Positions 1,606 through 43,106 of a DNA stretch of 64,000 nt are shown here, piece by piece; within the stretch, counting starts at the first letter, position 1, and each line of letters opens with the position of its first letter. The stretch comes from Diadema antillarum. Its lineage: Eukaryota. The stretch covers positions 62,001 to 126,000 of the forward strand of contig NW_027272560.1 in the NCBI RefSeq assembly GCF_040938485.1, read 5' to 3'. The position numbers are program-made.

Positions 1606-4590
1606 TCAGTGAACAGCAGTAATACCACGTCATCTAGAATAAGTAGATCTTAAATTGTACTGACTACTGACGTTGATATCAAGAATAGAAAAAGAACGGG
1701 ATAACAACGATCGCACAGTAATGGTCCAGTGTAAAGGTGGTGATACAGGTATAACACGTACAGTAAATAACACTTTAATACAAGGTGTAAACAAAGCCTT
1801 GAATGTGGCACGTTTACCTTACCATTTATAATGATGGCAAACCAATTCGAGATGAAACTGCAATCAAACGATGTCAGAAATTAATGCCCTCGATCCATCA
1901 ACACCCCCAGCTGCCATATCACCCGATCTGTGTGTTCTCACATATCATTCTCATAACGATATCAACCCAGGAAGTGCTGTGAAAAGTCTAGGCGATAGAG
2001 GGGGAGAGAGAGCGTGGCTCAACAGCGAAGCTGACATACCTACATAGAATCTCTCCTATTGACAGACGCTTAGAATAGTGACAAGGCAAGCGACTTAAGT
2101 TGCCCTCTGGAGTTGATATTCGAATGCAGTGGATCTTTCTCCGCGATCTGAAAAACAAACAAACAAACACACACCCACAAACAAACAAACACTGTCTGGG
2201 TTTCGATGAATAGACTATATCCATGCACAAAAGACAAAGCAAAATGACATCACACCCTGATGCCTTTATCGTTAATATGATTTTCCGTACACGTGATAGG
2301 GATTATTCCATCAAGCAGGACTTCAGCATGCCGTAAAAAGCCTTTGATACTCACGGTCTTTCGCAGACGAGCCGTACATCTTCCCTGAAGGAAAGTACCT
2401 GTGCGCGTGTATTAAAGTGCTACTGTCATTTCCCTACGTTGTGTGAGTGTGCGTACGTACAGAAGGAGAGGAAGAGAGCGAGAGGGGGTGGGGCGTTTAA
2501 AGAGACCAGGTATATTCACAACCCCCGTCACAACACAAAGAGCTAGCGTCTAGTTTCGGGTCAGATTCATTATAAATACAGTCATTTAGACCATGGCACA
2601 GGTCACACCGTATACCATCCTCGTCACGCTCGTAACACTACGATGTCTACGGCGATGTATGCACAGTAGGTCAATTTATTATGATAATCAGACGTTGCAA
2701 AATCGACAGAAAGCATTGGCGTACGATTCACAGTAATTCTTGCGTGAAATTCAACTTCCTTGATTATTCAGATATTCACATTGTGTACGTGGCTGGTCAG
2801 TCACATTAAGTATACCGACATGTTATTTTTAAAGAAGGAAAATATAACCGCCTGAAAGTATAGCTTCAGAAATGAGTCAATCAATCTGCTGAACTACTAA
2901 CATTTTTATACCGGTGAAAACTCCCGTGAAAACTGTTGTCGTCTCAATCTAATGGTTTCCGTATAAGGAATTCTACACATCACTGGCTGAATAGAATACT
3001 GCATCGCTACACTTGCTTTCAGCACACTGGACATATGATTATAGCTCCGAATTACCACCTCCCCCTCCCCCAATAATGTGATCGACAATCACAATGCTAA
3101 TACGACTAATGTAAACCTTGGAAATACTTAAATTGAACGGGTTTGTATTAACCCTCAGCCCCTCCCCCCTCCCCCATTGTTCTACGCGGTCAGACCTGCA
3201 GAGGGTTATAAGAGTTCAATCGATCACGACGGAATTCTGCATAGTCAGAAGAATTTTCCATTTCAGTATAATAATATTAGAGAGAGGTGTAAAGGGGAGA
3301 AAGGGAGAGAGAGATGGAGTATATTCGCCAGTAGTACTCTCTAAAAAAAATCGAGTGAAAATATTCACTCTTAAAAGAGTGAATACAAAAAAGAGTGAAT
3401 TTCGAGTGAAATTGGAGTGAATTTTGAGTGAAAATGCTCATTTTCACTCACTTCGGAGTGACGTCAGGGATCACTCGAAGATTTTGGAGTGATCCCTGAC
3501 GTCACTCCAAAGTGAGTGAAAATGAACATTTTCACTCAAAATTCACTCCAATTTCACTCGGAATTCACTCTTTTTTGTATTCACTCTTTTAAGAGTGAAT
3601 TTTTTCACTCGATTTTTTTTAGAGAGTAGGTATAATAAAGCAATCAATAATTGGTTATATCTAACGATAAATGCATACTCTTCCAATCTACTTAAAAGAG
3701 GTATATGATTAAAATCATTCAGCAGAATTATTGACTAACGGCGTAGAGGTTTGTTCAAAATTAAATGTAACAGCTGAAAGAATCACAATGATGTAAACGT
3801 TTTCGTCTAATAGTCATTCGTCAAGAAGATAACATTATAAAAGTGTTTCAAAACAAAGGTAATATTATCTAAGCCGAGAGGTTTCGTAGCTTTCCTGCGT
3901 GAGACCTTCTTTTACAGGTTGTGTTGTCCTCCATCATAATATAAAACGTCACCCCCCCCCCATGCTGAAGAGAAGTCACAGTATACATATGTTATGATAA
4001 TGAGCAACTAGCTTTCCCTTTTCCATCTGTACAATATGACGGGAGTAATGTGATCAAATGTAGCAGCCAAGCACAAGATGAGCACGTCAGTGGAGGTATG
4101 TATAAGGGACAGTAATACCCATCTTGACAAAGCTTTATTTGCATTCATTTATTTTTTTTTTCATTTCCAACAGAAACATACAGGAATAGAATGCACACAT
4201 TAAAATGACACCGTAAAATAAACGATATTTACACTTTTGCAAAACATTTTGAGTAAACAGGGTCGGTGGAGCCGGGGATGGGGGGCTCTCGGCCACTCCC
4301 CACTTTTTTTTTTCACCATAATACATAAGGTGTCACCCACTTTGGTCCCCCCCCCCCTATTTTTTCTAACCCCGGAAGTGCGTAAGTGGCACTAGAAAGG
4401 CTTTGATTTCCGCTGACTTTTTTTTGTTTTGTTTTGTTGTTGTTGTTGTTGTTTTGTTTTTTTTTGCTTGTCAGCTGAAGAAACCCCGAAGTCGCACCCT
4501 CAAGAAGTTGCGCTGAAGACTTTTTGTTTTTGCTGCTTGTTAGCTGATGGAACCCAGAAATGGCACCAGAAGTCTGAAGTGCCCCCCCCC

Positions 4591-4637
<47 letters not shown>

Positions 4638-40500: not shown

Positions 40501-43106
40501 ATATAAGTGTGGATACTGCTCCGAAACTTGCGGGCATGACTTGTTTGTGTCGACGGCTTGAATTTAATTGGTCGAGACCAAACAAAAAGCCTAGATATCT
40601 TTGATTCATGACTCAGAGCTAAGTTAAACATCGATAAGACCCGCTTACTTAGTTTAAACATTTATTTTTTTAAGCTTTTGCTATCTTGTGTTTTTTTTCA
40701 TTAGGATCTAAACATGAACATGGCCTACTTTTTCTAGATGGACTGTGTAGGCCTTCCATCGGACAGTTTGATACCGCTTGATCTAGATGGTACATAATAA
40801 AACAAATATGAGCAAAGCGGTCTTAAGTGTGAAAAAACTTGCAGATTTCATATTCTTCATAATTATTAATGATCAGATGCAACCAGTTTTTGTCAATTCC
40901 CTCACAGGTATTCCTTTGAAAAATGTAAATGACAGCATAAGCCGGTCGGAAATATGAAATTAATTCGAATGTAAAAACAAGCAACGGCGTTTTCAATCAC
41001 ACTATAGATTAAGAACTCAGCATTTATTAAAATTTCCAGGTCTCTGCTTGCCTTTAAAGACTCAGAATTTTATGTGGCTGGGCCTTGGCTGTTACAAATT
41101 ACAAATGTTTTGAACATCGCATTACACGTAAACATCTAATTAGACACTGAAGAAGGGATGACATACGGCCTGTCTTGGAAGGGCAGCCAAATATCGTAAC
41201 AGGATGTGGCTATATTGAGCAGTGATTATGCAGAGACATCGAGCGTACCTTTTGGCACACTCTTTCGGGGTTTTTTTTTTTCTCATTTTTTTACATTATT
41301 GATTCGGGGAAAGAAAACTTAAATCTGACAACAATCACTGTAGAACGACAGGGCGGATGACATGGATGGCAAACCAAAACAAAACATGCCCTTGAACACG
41401 TGTTGAATCGAAAAGGACAGGAAACTAGATTACTCTATTATTTGCAATCGGAAACTGATAAACCATGGTAAGTTCCTGACTTTAATCGGCATGCTTTTTG
41501 CAGCTGTTGAAGGTAGAAGATTCTTTAAGGTGCTGTTAAAAGTGTCAAATTTTCCATCTTATAGTACATGGACGGTACACACTCGATTGTAGGCCTACTA
41601 TTACCTATGGAAAAGAATTTATTCCTTTTTTGTTGTTTTGGCTTAAGATATTTGGATAAATAGTCCACGAAATATTGTTTTCGTTTCAGACAAGATGGAT
41701 TATCCAGAACTTGTAATAACTCATTTCGTAATCCTGTGCGCTTATCCATCAAACTCTATGTCCAAAAAACCACATGCCTGTGGTGGGCGCTGTATCTTTT
41801 TCTTTCATCATGATTCGTGTTTTTCATACTTGGAACCTTTGATGCGGAATTGAAAAAGATAAGTACAGTGTGTATTTTCCATTTCAGCATTATTCTGGGA
41901 AATCACTCGTGTTCACAGGTTGCAGAATAACCAAAAGACTCTAAATCGCAAAATCTATAATTGATCCTGAAGTTGGCAATATGGCCTACATTTTAAGAGA
42001 CCAACGATAAAAGGATTGCATAGTTTTGGTTGAGATATAGGGGATTCAGATTTTAACCTTTTTTTTTTTGCGAGATGATTAGAAACCATTTACGAAATAT
42101 TAAAGAGTGTACACGTCTACAAGAGGAGTTAAAATATTTTTTTCTGATGAACATCGGTTCTAATATGGATGAGTTATCTCAAAGCAAAGTAGAACAAAGT
42201 ACCTTTTATCAGGACCTCTTTGTTTTTGTTTTTTGGATATCTCAGCCATTTCAAAACCAATTTTCATCAAATAAACTTTGAATCACTCTAAGAATTATAT
42301 GCTTTCTCATATTTTATACAAGAGCTTCTCTCATTATTTAAAAAATATCATTGGAAAAACGTTTGAAACCTTAGGTCGTATCTCAACCGAACTGTACCAT
42401 CCCTTTAAATGAATTCAACAAGTTGCAGCAAAATTGATTTGCCATATTAGTAAGAAACAAGATGATTTATTTGGTAAAATTATTCCATGACTTCAAAGTT
42501 GAAACGCAATTCATTATGTTTGTATGTTGTTTGCGTTGAAGGATATCGATCCGTTTCATTTTTAATTTCAATTTCAATTTCAATGTATTTTTCTCTTTTT
42601 TATTTTCATTTTTTTTTTCAGAAATACAATACACAAACGAAAATACAGTAATATAGGAATTTTTGTTAAAATTAAGTTTTCTAAGAAAATTTCAATTTTA
42701 CAAATGTTAAGTGCTGTAAGGGCCGTCACAATGAACACATGTAATGCTTGATGAGATGATAGCCCATTTCTTATGACCAAACAGTCAAAAAATGTTCTCT
42801 AGGATTTACACATAAAAGAAGGGAAAAGGGTGCAAGTAGGGGGGGGATGATTCACGAATGGCCTGGTTTGATTGTACCTAAAAAGAGAATAACTATGATA
42901 ACTGATTAATTTCTGAAGGATGTTCACAAGAATTTACTGTTACAACATGGTGGGGATGTGGAGACACACACACACACACACACAAAAAAAACCTCGCGGA
43001 AGGAACTTCTTGTGGGTATATGGCACTGTATGTGTGAGTTTGAACGTGTGTATACGTATTTCGTCTTCTCGTTTATGTGTATATTTGTGGATGTGTTTGC
43101 GTGTGT

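What the first reader, a model, noticed from the sequence alone, without database searches (positions are those of the whole stretch)
4069..40829. Two-receptor module duplicated in tandem as a ~16-kb block, all four genes intact
Seen: units 4069-20277 and 24267-40829 are collinear and separated by a unique ~4-kb spacer. All four ORFs are open despite about 12 indel events around them. A1/A2 show ~12 synonymous vs 6 non-synonymous differences, consistent with both being constrained. The only gap is inside unit 1, not at the junction, and non-coding divergence reaches roughly 10-15% in places. Both points favour true paralogues, but two divergent haplotypes assembled in tandem cannot be excluded in a highly heterozygous marine invertebrate.
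[Added by the scan's program, not by the reader: the finding's places include an assembly gap (unread letters, written N; its length is only estimated) at 17910 to 18037. Whether the letters on both sides are continuous or in frame is not known: test that first.]
Basis: partly seen in the sequence, partly recalled or inferred. Interest (0 to 1): 0.68.

Follow-up and report, generated by a model that had tools for sequence, protein, structure and literature searches.

The report
Real tandem duplication of receptor pair
A sea urchin (Diadema) genome carries two neighbouring copies of a 16-kb block, each holding two intact orphan receptor genes; the copies look like true gene duplicates rather than an assembly error, which is an ordinary way for such gene families to grow.

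Summary
Unit 1 (4064-20273) and unit 2 (24261-40826) are collinear direct repeats separated by a unique 3,987-bp spacer.

The N run (17910-18037) is non-coding, 1,408 bp past the B1 stop. Its flanks map to unit 2 in the same order and strand, 131 vs 161 bp apart.

The window is from Diadema, closest to D. antillarum. The decisive new evidence is that B1 and B2 are trans-specific:
- D. setosum has a B1-type and a B2-type gene with consecutive accessions.
- 10 of 42 variable columns sort by type and 0 of 42 by species.
- An AU test rejects a window-only B1+B2 clade (p 0.005; 0.0002 for the N-terminal half).

So these are true paralogues, not haplotypes joined in tandem.

The block has two ages. 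Non-coding divergence is 5.1% left of about 12345 (the A half) and 12.1% right of it.

The genes are orphan receptors, not amine receptors. This is an ordinary tandem GPCR duplication of modest interest.

The parts
4064..20273 (+). Duplication unit 1 (A1 + B1)
   Evidence: Collinear chain of 13 HSPs to unit 2. Both ends are sharp.
24261..40826 (+). Duplication unit 2 (A2 + B2)
20274..24260 (.). Unique non-coding spacer between the units. It is rich in internal repeats and poly-C tracts.
   Evidence: No similarity to the rest of the window or to either outer flank. No Pfam domain in 7 of 7 spacer frames scanned out of 16 listed; the only hits had E 0.3-0.7. No terminal inverted or long terminal repeats. 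The protein-atlas search of the 181-aa frame gave no usable hit.
22941..23735 (.). 293-bp tandem repeat, 2.7 copies, inside the spacer
   Evidence: TRF score 939. More degenerate copies extend back to about 22217.
10821..12164 (+). A1, 447-aa class-A GPCR, single ORF
   Evidence: Pfam 7tm_1 E 2e-46, profile 1-260/260. The exact protein is held by NCBI/UniRef.
28357..29700 (+). A2, 447 aa, 6 aa different from A1
   Evidence: dS 0.0375, dN 0.0059, omega 0.16.
15209..16501 (+). B1. The ORF is 430 aa; the database model starts at Met 8 (15230) and is 423 aa.
   Evidence: Pfam 7tm_1 E 4e-45. The 423-aa form is in the collection as P0005.
33301..34602 (+). B2. The ORF is 433 aa; the database model starts at 33331 and is 423 aa.
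   Evidence: Pfam 7tm_1 E 1e-44. The 423-aa form is in the collection as P0106. It differs from B1 by 29 aa and 55 nt.
17910..18037 (.). N run (128), in non-coding DNA of the unit-1 tail
   Evidence: Its flanks are collinear with unit 2, 131 vs 161 bp apart. No frame longer than 42 codons abuts it.
12307..12546 (.). Step in unit-to-unit divergence, maximum-likelihood point 12345, about 180 bp after the A1 stop
   Evidence: Single change-point on 8,898 non-coding columns: 5.1% to the left, 12.1% to the right, 2*dlnL 127, chi-square p 6e-27.
4470..7114 (.). Unit-1-only segment (2,645 bp) holding microsatellites. Further unit-1-only segments lie at 7421-7821 and 8356-8883.
   Evidence: Breaks between HSPs. 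No other copy in the window. No Pfam domain in 5 frames scanned.
27547..27992 (.). Unit-2-only insertion 365 bp upstream of the A2 ATG, related to a repeat at window 50-281
   Evidence: 79-88% identity to 50-281.
32705..33216 (.). Unit-2-only segment (512 bp) ending 85 bp before the B2 ORF
   Evidence: No other copy in the window.
34662..35038 (.). Unit-2-only copy of a palindromic dispersed repeat, starting 60 bp after the B2 stop
   Evidence: Matches 42008-42408 on both strands, and also 45602-45949, 18625-18904 and 39209-39424.
36079..37205 (+). Unit-2-only insertion with a 5'-truncated reverse-transcriptase frame (36100-37005)
   Evidence: Pfam RVT_1 E 5e-7, 30.0 bits against a cut-off of 29.6; only profile positions 138-203 of 205 match.
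45921..48482 (-). Flanking gene: first coding exon (853-aa ORF) of a secretin/adhesion-type 7TM protein with a somatomedin-B-like N-terminus. It serves as a synteny marker.
   Evidence: Pfam 7tm_2 E 3e-11; Somatomedin_B E 7e-4, below its cut-off. 825 of 843 residues identical to XP_071478211.1 of D. antillarum.

Best explanation
**What it is.** This is a genuine direct tandem duplication of a 16-kb block in a Diadema sea-urchin genome. Each copy carries two single-ORF orphan rhodopsin-class GPCR genes, A and B. A and B are themselves old paralogues (dN 0.37, dS saturated).

**Two ages.**
- The B half is everything right of about 12345 in unit 1. Here the copies split before the window species and D. 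setosum separated, and have since diverged to about 12% in non-coding DNA. dS is 0.14 in the first 215 codons of B.
- The A half is 4064 to about 12345. Here the copies differ by only about 5%, and A dS is 0.04.

**How the younger layer arose (inferred, not resolved).** Two routes fit the data:
- Ectopic gene conversion or unequal crossing-over between two old units, with A2 then lost in D. setosum.
- A more recent re-duplication of A-B1, followed by a homologous deletion that fused the new copy to the old B2.

**State of the four genes.** All four have stayed under selection against frameshifts and, overall, against amino-acid change.

**Function (inferred).**
- The proteins are 7TM receptors that signal through G proteins.
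- The ligand is unknown and is not a classical biogenic amine.
- B1 and B2 differ at positions flanking the orthosteric pocket. These differences are conserved across species, which suggests two ligand specificities.
- A1 and A2 are near-identical, which suggests redundancy or dosage.
For: **Shown: structure.**
- Two collinear direct copies with sharp ends.
- A unique spacer unrelated to either outer flank.
- The unit-1 tail, the spacer and the whole of unit 2 lie in uninterrupted letters to the right of the N run. The run's flanks abut collinearly, 131 vs 161 bp apart.

**Shown: trans-specific B types.**
- In the 423-aa B alignment, 10 of 42 variable columns (29, 61, 73, 78, 97, 100, 102, 143, 173, 192) group window B1 with D. 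setosum XP_072175572.1, and window B2 with D. setosum XP_072175573.1 and D. antillarum XP_071478212.1.
- 0 of 42 columns group the two window genes against the two D. setosum genes.
- In the ML tree of 21 rows, the B2-type clade has support 93/92.
- The AU test rejects a (B1, B2) window clade: dlnL 44.6, p 0.005; N-terminal half p 0.0002, C-terminal half p 0.021.
- D. setosum accessions run 571 (A), 572 (B1-type), 573 (B2-type) on one 37.9-Mb scaffold. PMC11066563 describes a D. setosum chromosome-level assembly treated with purge_dups (passages). I did not check that it is the one these proteins were annotated on.

**Shown: two ages.**
- Regional K2P values: A upstream 0.049, A CDS 0.014, A-B intergenic 0.129, B downstream 0.125, post-gap tail 0.134.
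- A1 differs from A2 by 6 aa but from D. setosum A by 25. In 22 of 30 variable A columns only D. setosum differs.

**Shown: constraint.**
- 0 indels in 2,616 coding columns, against 17.6 per kb in non-coding DNA.
- For A, 6 of 18 differences are non-synonymous where 75.5% would be expected (binomial p 2e-4).
- For B (430-codon alignment, 61 differences), P(at most 35 non-synonymous) = 9e-4.
- N1.50, D2.50, R3.50, W4.50, P5.50, P6.50, NPxxY and the TM3/ECL2 cysteines are present in all four proteins. I read this from the alignment, with motif positions; the numbering is standard class-A knowledge.

**Shown: post-duplication history.** The unit-specific insertions include a reverse-transcriptase fragment and dispersed repeats.

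**Context.** Published k-mer heterozygosity is 2.52% for D. antillarum and 2.11% for D. setosum.
Against: - No read depth or spanning reads could be examined, so a contig-level misassembly is not formally excluded.
- The A half (1.3% in the CDS, about 5% around it) is only about twice the published heterozygosity, so taken alone it could pass for allelic.
- D. setosum and the named D. antillarum contig each show only one A protein in the 90% cluster. The second A is therefore seen only in the window.
- The AU test groups were chosen after I had seen the variable-site table, which weakens the p-values.
- Comparisons with the other species are at protein level only. Gene order there is inferred from consecutive accession numbers, not from coordinates.
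- The within-A root is unresolved in the trees (supports 87/22 and 50/0). 'A1/A2 coalesce after the D. setosum split' rests on distances (6 vs 25 aa) and a rough clock.
- B shows signs of weaker constraint. Omega is 0.88 in codons 216-423, and window B2 has 12 residues not shared with its two closest relatives, against 6 for D. antillarum B (my count; relative-rate chi-square 2.0, not significant).
- The pocket argument uses generic residue numbering, not a structure.
Confidence: 0.82

Rival explanations
1. False duplication: the locus is single-copy, and two divergent haplotypes (A1-B1 and A2-B2) were strung together by the assembler or by patching.
For: - The A half differs by only 1.3% (CDS) to about 5%, not far above the published 2.5% heterozygosity.
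- The NCBI-annotated D. antillarum assembly is known to retain both haplotypes; 84.4% of BUSCOs are duplicated (PMC13511894 abstract and Discussion).
- The named D. antillarum contig of 963,751 bp has just one A and one B next to the same flanking gene.
Against: - B1 and B2 types both occur in D. setosum as neighbouring models, without a duplicated A between them. A haplotype concatenation would not produce that.
- Homology stops sharply at both unit ends, and the 4-kb spacer matches neither flank.
- There is no gap at the junction, and the only N run is bridged collinearly.
- The 3' half is 12% divergent, with many insertions of 0.4-1.1 kb.
- In that published assembly the retained haplotypes are described as duplicated content across the assembly, not as tandem joins.
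Confidence: 0.05
2. The duplication is real, but unit 2 (or at least B2) is decaying: an intact-looking ORF under relaxed constraint, with a disrupted promoter.
For: - B omega is 0.88 in codons 216-423, and codons 216-330 show 12 non-synonymous against 0 synonymous differences.
- Window B2 has the longest terminal branch among the B genes (0.031).
- Unit-2-only insertions end 85 bp before the B2 ORF and lie 365 bp before the A2 ATG.
- D. setosum lacks an annotated second A.
Against: - No stop or frameshift occurs in any of the four ORFs, although non-coding DNA around them carries 17.6 indels per kb.
- All class-A microswitch residues are kept.
- A2 omega against A1 is 0.16.
- B codons 1-215 have omega 0.23.
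- The relative-rate excess of B2 is not significant (12 vs 6).
Confidence: 0.1
3. B1 and B2 are ancient allelic lineages of one locus kept by balancing selection across species (trans-species polymorphism) and mis-assembled as neighbours in two different genome projects.
For: Only the pattern itself: two sequence types shared by two species, and one named contig with a single B.
Against: - It needs the same tandem artefact in two independent assemblies. PMC11066563 describes a purge_dups-treated, chromosome-scaffolded D. setosum assembly.
- In D. setosum the artefact would have had to skip gene A.
- The structural arguments against concatenation in the window also apply.
Confidence: 0.03

Closest known systems
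Tandem arrays of lineage-expanded rhodopsin-type GPCRs in echinoderms: the S. purpuratus 'surreal-GPCRs' and the Acanthaster planci ApOR clusters
   Same: - The genes are echinoderm-restricted class-A receptors that sit in tandem and multiply by local duplication.
- Automatic names such as 'alpha-1 adrenergic-like' are typical of them (PMC5442662 and PMC7042368 passages).
- Distant hits to B1 (28-39% identity: P0079, P0103, P0105) lie on an A. planci contig of 4,163,896 bp. That is the length the paper gives for its scaffold 10, which carries a 12-gene cluster.
   Different: - A and B have a 130-150-residue third intracellular loop and few close relatives. The B1 search found 102 proteins at E<=1e-20, which is not a large expansion.
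- Membership in a named surreal group could not be tested. The group lists are in supplements or in the original 2006 paper, neither of which I could see.
- A chemosensory role is unproven even for those families.
Biogenic-amine receptors (beta-adrenergic, alpha-1, 5-HT, dopamine), the source of the automatic names
   Same: - They are the best matches among solved structures: beta-2 adrenergic receptor E 7e-24 over TM1-TM5.
- They share a long ICL3 and a short C-terminal tail.
   Different: - The amine-binding Asp3.32 is Thr in A (alignment) and Gly in B (by register).
- DRY is NRW.
- The CWxP tryptophan is Leu.
Tre1 / moody / melatonin-type receptors with N at 3.49 ('NRY')
   Same: - Asn replaces Asp/Glu at 3.49.
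- More distant echinoderm hits are auto-named moody-like, trapped-in-endoderm-like or melatonin-receptor-like.
- The NRY motif of Tre1 is described in PMC3848830; I saw only the title and the start of the abstract in the search listing.
   Different: - The motif here is NRW, not NRY.
- No direct sequence comparison with Tre1, moody or a melatonin receptor was made.
- The resemblance is a lead only.
Young tandem duplicates partly homogenised by gene conversion; the primate gamma-globin pair is the textbook case (recalled, from no call)
   Same: Two direct copies in which one segment is far more alike than the rest, with a fairly sharp step in divergence.
   Different: - The more similar segment here is about 8 kb, long for a single conversion tract.
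- Re-duplication followed by a homologous deletion explains it equally well.

Membership tests
Rhodopsin-class (class A) GPCR, Pfam PF00001 | Full-length match to the 7tm_1 profile above the gathering score | tested here: met
   All 4 of 4 proteins match: E 1e-44 to 2e-46, 153-159 bits against a cut-off of 30.5, profile positions 1-260 of 260.
Rhodopsin-class (class A) GPCR, Pfam PF00001 | Conserved microswitch residues (N1.50, D2.50, R3.50, W4.50, P5.50, P6.50, NPxxY, TM3-ECL2 cysteines) | tested here: met
   Present in all four proteins in the alignment, with motif positions. Variants: D3.49 is N, Y3.51 is W and W6.48 is L.
Biogenic-amine receptors | Asp at 3.32, the counter-ion for the amine | tested here: not met
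   Beta-2 adrenergic receptor Asp113 aligns with Thr in A1. B1 and B2 have Gly at the same register, 18 residues before R3.50.
Biogenic-amine receptors | CWxP toggle tryptophan (6.48) with the aromatic cluster in TM6 | tested here: not met
   'CWLPF' of the beta-2 receptor aligns with 'CLLPF'. All four proteins have the same motif.
Sea-urchin surreal-GPCRs / echinoderm OR-like receptors | Placement inside one of the named expanded groups (A-F) by phylogeny | not testable with these tools
   Group member lists are in the original paper (not in the library) and in supplements (closed). I have only indirect links.
Sea-urchin surreal-GPCRs / echinoderm OR-like receptors | Tandem arrangement of single-exon coding regions | tested here: met
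   Four single-ORF genes on one strand within 24 kb.
Genuine tandem segmental duplication | Two collinear direct copies with defined breakpoints in continuous sequence | tested here: met
Genuine tandem segmental duplication | Copies older than allelic variation, or found in another species | tested here: met
   B types are shared with D. setosum. The 3' half is 12.1% divergent against the published 2.1-2.5% heterozygosity. This is met for the B half only.
Genuine tandem segmental duplication | Normal read depth on each copy and reads spanning the junctions | not testable with these tools
   No reads are available.
Haplotypic false duplication | Homology continues to the junction, or a gap or contig end sits at the junction | tested here: not met
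   The spacer compared with both outer flanks scores 12-15, at shuffle level. The only N run lies 2.2 kb inside unit 1 and is bridged collinearly.

The most novel reading that the evidence does not exclude
The locus is a small, dynamic receptor array in Diadema with three properties.

1. The two B genes are long-lived paralogues. Their type-specific residues flank the ligand pocket: 2.61, 3.28, 3.31, 3.33, the residue before the ECL2 cysteine, and 5.45. These residues are conserved across species, so they would mark two ligand specificities.
2. The two A genes are kept near-identical by ongoing ectopic recombination.
3. The same recombination creates copy-number alleles. The named D. antillarum contig carries an A1-type gene joined to a B2-type gene beside the same flanking gene. 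That is exactly the one-unit product expected from unequal crossing-over between the two units.

If the window and that contig were to come from one diploid animal, the animal would be heterozygous for one unit against two. I did not establish where the window comes from.
Probability: 0.3. Interest if true: 0.4.

Novelty: new member of a known kind. Interest (0 to 1): 0.25.

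Why it matters
The main value is for genome quality. Diadema assemblies are known to hold retained haplotypes, and gene counts there are inflated. This locus is a worked example of telling a true tandem duplicate from an allelic artefact without reads, using type-sharing across species, breakpoint anatomy and a divergence profile.

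Biologically, it adds one more case of local GPCR family growth in echinoderms. It also shows that the 'adrenergic' and '5-HT' names attached to these proteins are misleading. It does not open a new question.

Tried and rejected
- **Global MAFFT alignment of the two units.** It misplaced the 2.6-kb unit-1 insertion at the left end, so I dropped it for the BLAST chain.
- **Spacer as a transposon or gene.** I found no Pfam domain, no terminal repeats and no atlas hit. Its origin stays unknown.
- **A second 'young' tract in the 3' half of B.**
  - For: DNA divergence is low at 15846-16745 (2.7%), and dS is 0.034 in codons 216-423 against 0.143 in codons 1-215.
  - Against: the protein tree of that half does not join window B1 and B2 (AU p 0.021 against).
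  - I do not claim a tract there.
- **Accelerated evolution of window B2.** 12 vs 6 lineage-specific residues, chi-square 2.0, not significant (count).
- **Rfam scan of the whole window.** 0 matches at gathering scores.
- **Exact look-ups.** The 430- and 433-aa ORF forms of B, the 853-aa flank ORF and the PH-domain ORF are not in the collection.
- **Not checked.**
  - DNA of the D. setosum and D. antillarum loci: no eukaryotic genome collection was on hand, and genome contigs holds only bacteria and archaea, so I did not use it.
  - Metagenome contigs and viral contigs: closed, and not relevant here.
  - Paper supplements: closed. They may hold the surreal-GPCR and ApOR identifiers.
  - Structure prediction and complex prediction: not run, because they would not bear on the question.
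- **Flanking gene.** It is spliced in the D. antillarum model (961 aa against the 853-aa ORF here). I searched only the single ORF and left out the step of joining exons.

Full report
**Layout**

The window is 64 kb with 39.6% G+C and one N run at 17910-18037. Self-BLAST and a collinear chain of 13 HSPs show two direct copies, 4064-20273 and 24261-40826. They are separated by 3,987 bp (20274-24260) that match nothing else in the window apart from one 25-bp chance hit.

Each copy holds two long ORFs on the + strand:
- A1 10821-12164 and A2 28357-29700, 447 aa each.
- B1 15209-16501 and B2 33301-34602. Their database models start at an internal Met and are 423 aa.

All four are full-length Pfam 7tm_1 proteins.

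**The N run, tested first**

The run lies 1,408 bp after the B1 stop codon. No frame is open for more than 42 codons at either edge, so reading frame is not an issue.

The last aligned base before it (17908) maps to 37461 of unit 2, and the first after it (18040) maps to 37623. Order and strand are the same, and the distances are 131 and 161 bp. The two sides therefore continue each other collinearly. The run is not where a duplicated stretch begins or ends.

I did not fill it or infer its letters. Whether it is an assembly gap or a masked stretch is unknown to me.

- A1 and A2 differ at 18 nucleotides, 12 synonymous and 6 non-synonymous.
- The 'about 12 indels' are the 12 breaks between HSPs.
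- A further 157 small indels lie inside the HSPs. None is in the 2,616 coding columns, where about 46 would be expected at the non-coding rate. That count depends on my lenient gap penalties.
- B1 and B2 (423 codons) differ at 55 nucleotides, 25 synonymous and 30 non-synonymous. This gives dS 0.087, dN 0.032 and omega 0.36, with 29 amino-acid differences.

**Organism and relatives**

Exact look-ups put A1 and A2 in a 90% cluster with one D. setosum protein (XP_072175571.1) and one D. antillarum protein (XP_071478213.1).

B1 and B2 cluster with D. antillarum XP_071478212.1 and two D. setosum proteins, XP_072175572.1 and XP_072175573.1.

A1 differs from the D. antillarum A by 2 residues of 447. 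The window is therefore from Diadema, at or very near D. antillarum. I did not try to determine which assembly it comes from.

**Paralogues or haplotypes**

The B alignment has 42 variable columns.
- In 10 of them, window B1 shares its residue with D. setosum 572, while window B2 shares the other residue with D. setosum 573 and D. antillarum 212.
- In 0 of them do the two window genes stand together against the two D. setosum genes.

A maximum-likelihood tree of 21 rows gives the B2-type clade 93/92 support. An AU test rejects a clade of window B1 + B2 (dlnL 44.6, p 0.005). Split by halves, p is 0.0002 for residues 1-215 and 0.021 for 216-423. I chose the tested group after seeing the site table, so these p-values are optimistic.

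The B1/B2 split is therefore older than the separation of the window species from D. setosum. In D. setosum the two types are neighbouring models, judged by their consecutive accessions, on a 37.9-Mb scaffold. A published D. setosum chromosome-level assembly was treated with purge_dups (PMC11066563, passages). I did not check that it is the annotated one.

The structure of the window agrees:
- Homology ends sharply at both unit boundaries.
- The spacer's two ends resemble neither the left nor the right outer flank: local scores are 12-15, against a shuffle mean of 13.9 and maximum of 19. Two concatenated haplotypes should remain alignable up to the join.
- The letters to the right of the N run contain the unit-1 tail, the spacer and all of unit 2 without interruption.
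- The units also differ by insertions of 0.4-2.6 kb. These include a 5'-truncated reverse-transcriptase fragment at 36100-37005 (RVT_1, E 5e-7, just above the cut-off) and copies of dispersed repeats.

**Two ages in one block**

Non-coding divergence between the units is not uniform. A single change-point fitted to 8,898 non-coding columns falls at unit-1 position 12345 (support interval 12307-12546), about 180 bp after the A1 stop. The p-distance is 5.1% to the left and 12.1% to the right (2*dlnL 127, chi-square p 6e-27).

| Region | K2P |
|---|---|
| A upstream | 0.049 |
| A CDS | 0.014 |
| A-B intergenic | 0.129 |
| B downstream | 0.125 |
| Tail after the N run | 0.134 |

dS in B codons 1-215 is 0.143, matching the older layer. 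dS of A is 0.0375, matching the younger layer.

At protein level, A1 and A2 differ by 6 residues, but each differs from D. setosum A by 25-27. So the A copies appear to coalesce after the species split and the B copies before it. The root inside the A clade is not resolved by the trees, so the A part of this statement rests on distances.

Two histories fit, and only D. setosum DNA could separate them:
- An old whole-block duplication whose A half was later homogenised by ectopic conversion or unequal crossing-over, with A2 lost or unannotated in D. setosum.
- An old duplication of the B segment, then a recent duplication of A-B1, then a homologous deletion that joined the new A to the old B2.

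Published k-mer heterozygosity is 2.52% for D. antillarum (PMC13511894, Methods and Discussion read) and 2.11% for D. setosum. The older layer is about five times that value and the younger about twice.

**What the genes are**

The nearest solved structures are beta-adrenergic and other amine receptors (best E 7e-24, TM1-TM5), which explains the automatic names. However, the alignment shows three departures:
- The amine-binding Asp3.32 is Thr in A. By register it is Gly in B.
- DRY is NRW.
- The CWxP tryptophan is Leu.

The other class-A landmarks are intact in all four proteins.

The family is echinoderm-restricted in my search: 102 proteins at E<=1e-20. All the named ones are echinoderm proteins, and many carry 'adrenergic', '5-HT', 'melatonin', 'moody' or 'trapped in endoderm' labels.

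Echinoderm rhodopsin-type receptors are known to expand in tandem arrays, and these arrays have been proposed as chemoreceptors (PMC7042368 and PMC5442662, passages only). The original sea-urchin description is cited there but I did not see it. Whether A and B belong to a named group could not be tested.

The ten type-specific B residues map, by standard numbering anchored on the conserved motifs, to 1.40, 2.44, 2.56, 2.61, 3.28, 3.31, 3.33, 4.46, the residue before the ECL2 cysteine, and 5.45. Several of these border the usual ligand pocket. That B1 and B2 have different ligand preferences is an inference.

**Neighbouring species' arrangement**

The 853-aa ORF at 45921-48482 (minus strand) is a secretin/adhesion-type 7TM protein with a somatomedin-B-like start.
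- It is 825/843 identical to D. antillarum XP_071478211.1.
- That accession runs consecutively with the B2-type (212) and A1-type (213) proteins on a 963,751-bp contig.
- That contig therefore seems to carry one unit, A1-type plus B2-type, beside the same flank gene. This is what unequal crossing-over between the two units would leave.
- PMC13511894 states that the NCBI annotation of D. antillarum was made on an assembly that keeps both haplotypes as duplicated content. I note this as context only.
- The flank gene is spliced in that model. I searched only the single ORF and left out joining exons.

**Verdict**

This is an ordinary, genuine tandem duplication of two orphan GPCR genes, with a mosaic age structure.

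Noticed in passing
window 45921-48482 (-): The named D. antillarum contig (963,751 bp) has consecutive accessions for the flank gene, a B2-type gene and an A1-type gene. This is a one-unit arrangement, as expected from unequal crossing-over between the two units. It could be a copy-number allele or a species difference.
   Followed up: partly
(D. setosum XP_072175571-573): D. setosum shows A, B1-type and B2-type proteins with consecutive accessions but no second A in the 90% cluster or in the B1 search. A2 is either lost or unannotated there, or it was gained later in the window lineage.
   Followed up: partly
window 15875-16219 / 33976-34320 (B codons 216-330, third intracellular loop): B1 and B2 show 12 non-synonymous and 0 synonymous differences here. 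The chance of 0 of 12 being synonymous under neutrality is about 0.04, for a window picked after the fact. Six of the changes are unique to window B2. This is unexplained.
   Followed up: partly
window 9755-10050 / 26838-27136: A non-coding patch 0.8-1.1 kb upstream of the A start has only 2 differences in 295 columns, while neighbouring windows show 6-7%. It could be a conserved regulatory element or untranslated exon, or a recent conversion tract.
   Followed up: no
window 4064-4110 / 24261-24307: The left end of both units begins with an ATG-containing stretch followed by a GTATGT donor-like site. This may be an upstream exon of gene A sitting right at the duplication breakpoint. I have no transcript evidence.
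   Followed up: no
window 27547-27992 and 32705-33216: Unit-2-only segments lie directly upstream of A2 (365 bp before the ATG; related to a repeat at window 50-281) and of B2 (ending 85 bp before the ORF). They may change how the second copies are expressed.
   Followed up: partly
window 34662-35038, 42008-42408, 45602-45949, 18625-18904, 39209-39424: A dispersed repeat family of about 300-400 bp that matches itself on both strands (palindromic, MITE-like). One copy is shared by both unit tails and one is specific to unit 2.
   Followed up: partly
window 36100-37005, 39877-40281, 54890-55267: Retroelement remnants. The first has an RVT_1 C-terminal match. The other two ORFs have no Pfam hit, but by recall they look like C-terminal parts of non-LTR element proteins.
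   Followed up: partly
window 61247-61840 (+): A 197-aa ORF with a weak PH-domain match (E 0.003, below the cut-off). The exact sequence is not in the protein collection. It is probably one exon of a larger gene.
   Followed up: no
window 28732-28734 (A2 codon 126): A2 has Phe where A1 and both other Diadema A proteins have Tyr, two residues before the conserved Arg of the NRW motif. The change is conservative, and it is the only one next to a microswitch.
   Followed up: no
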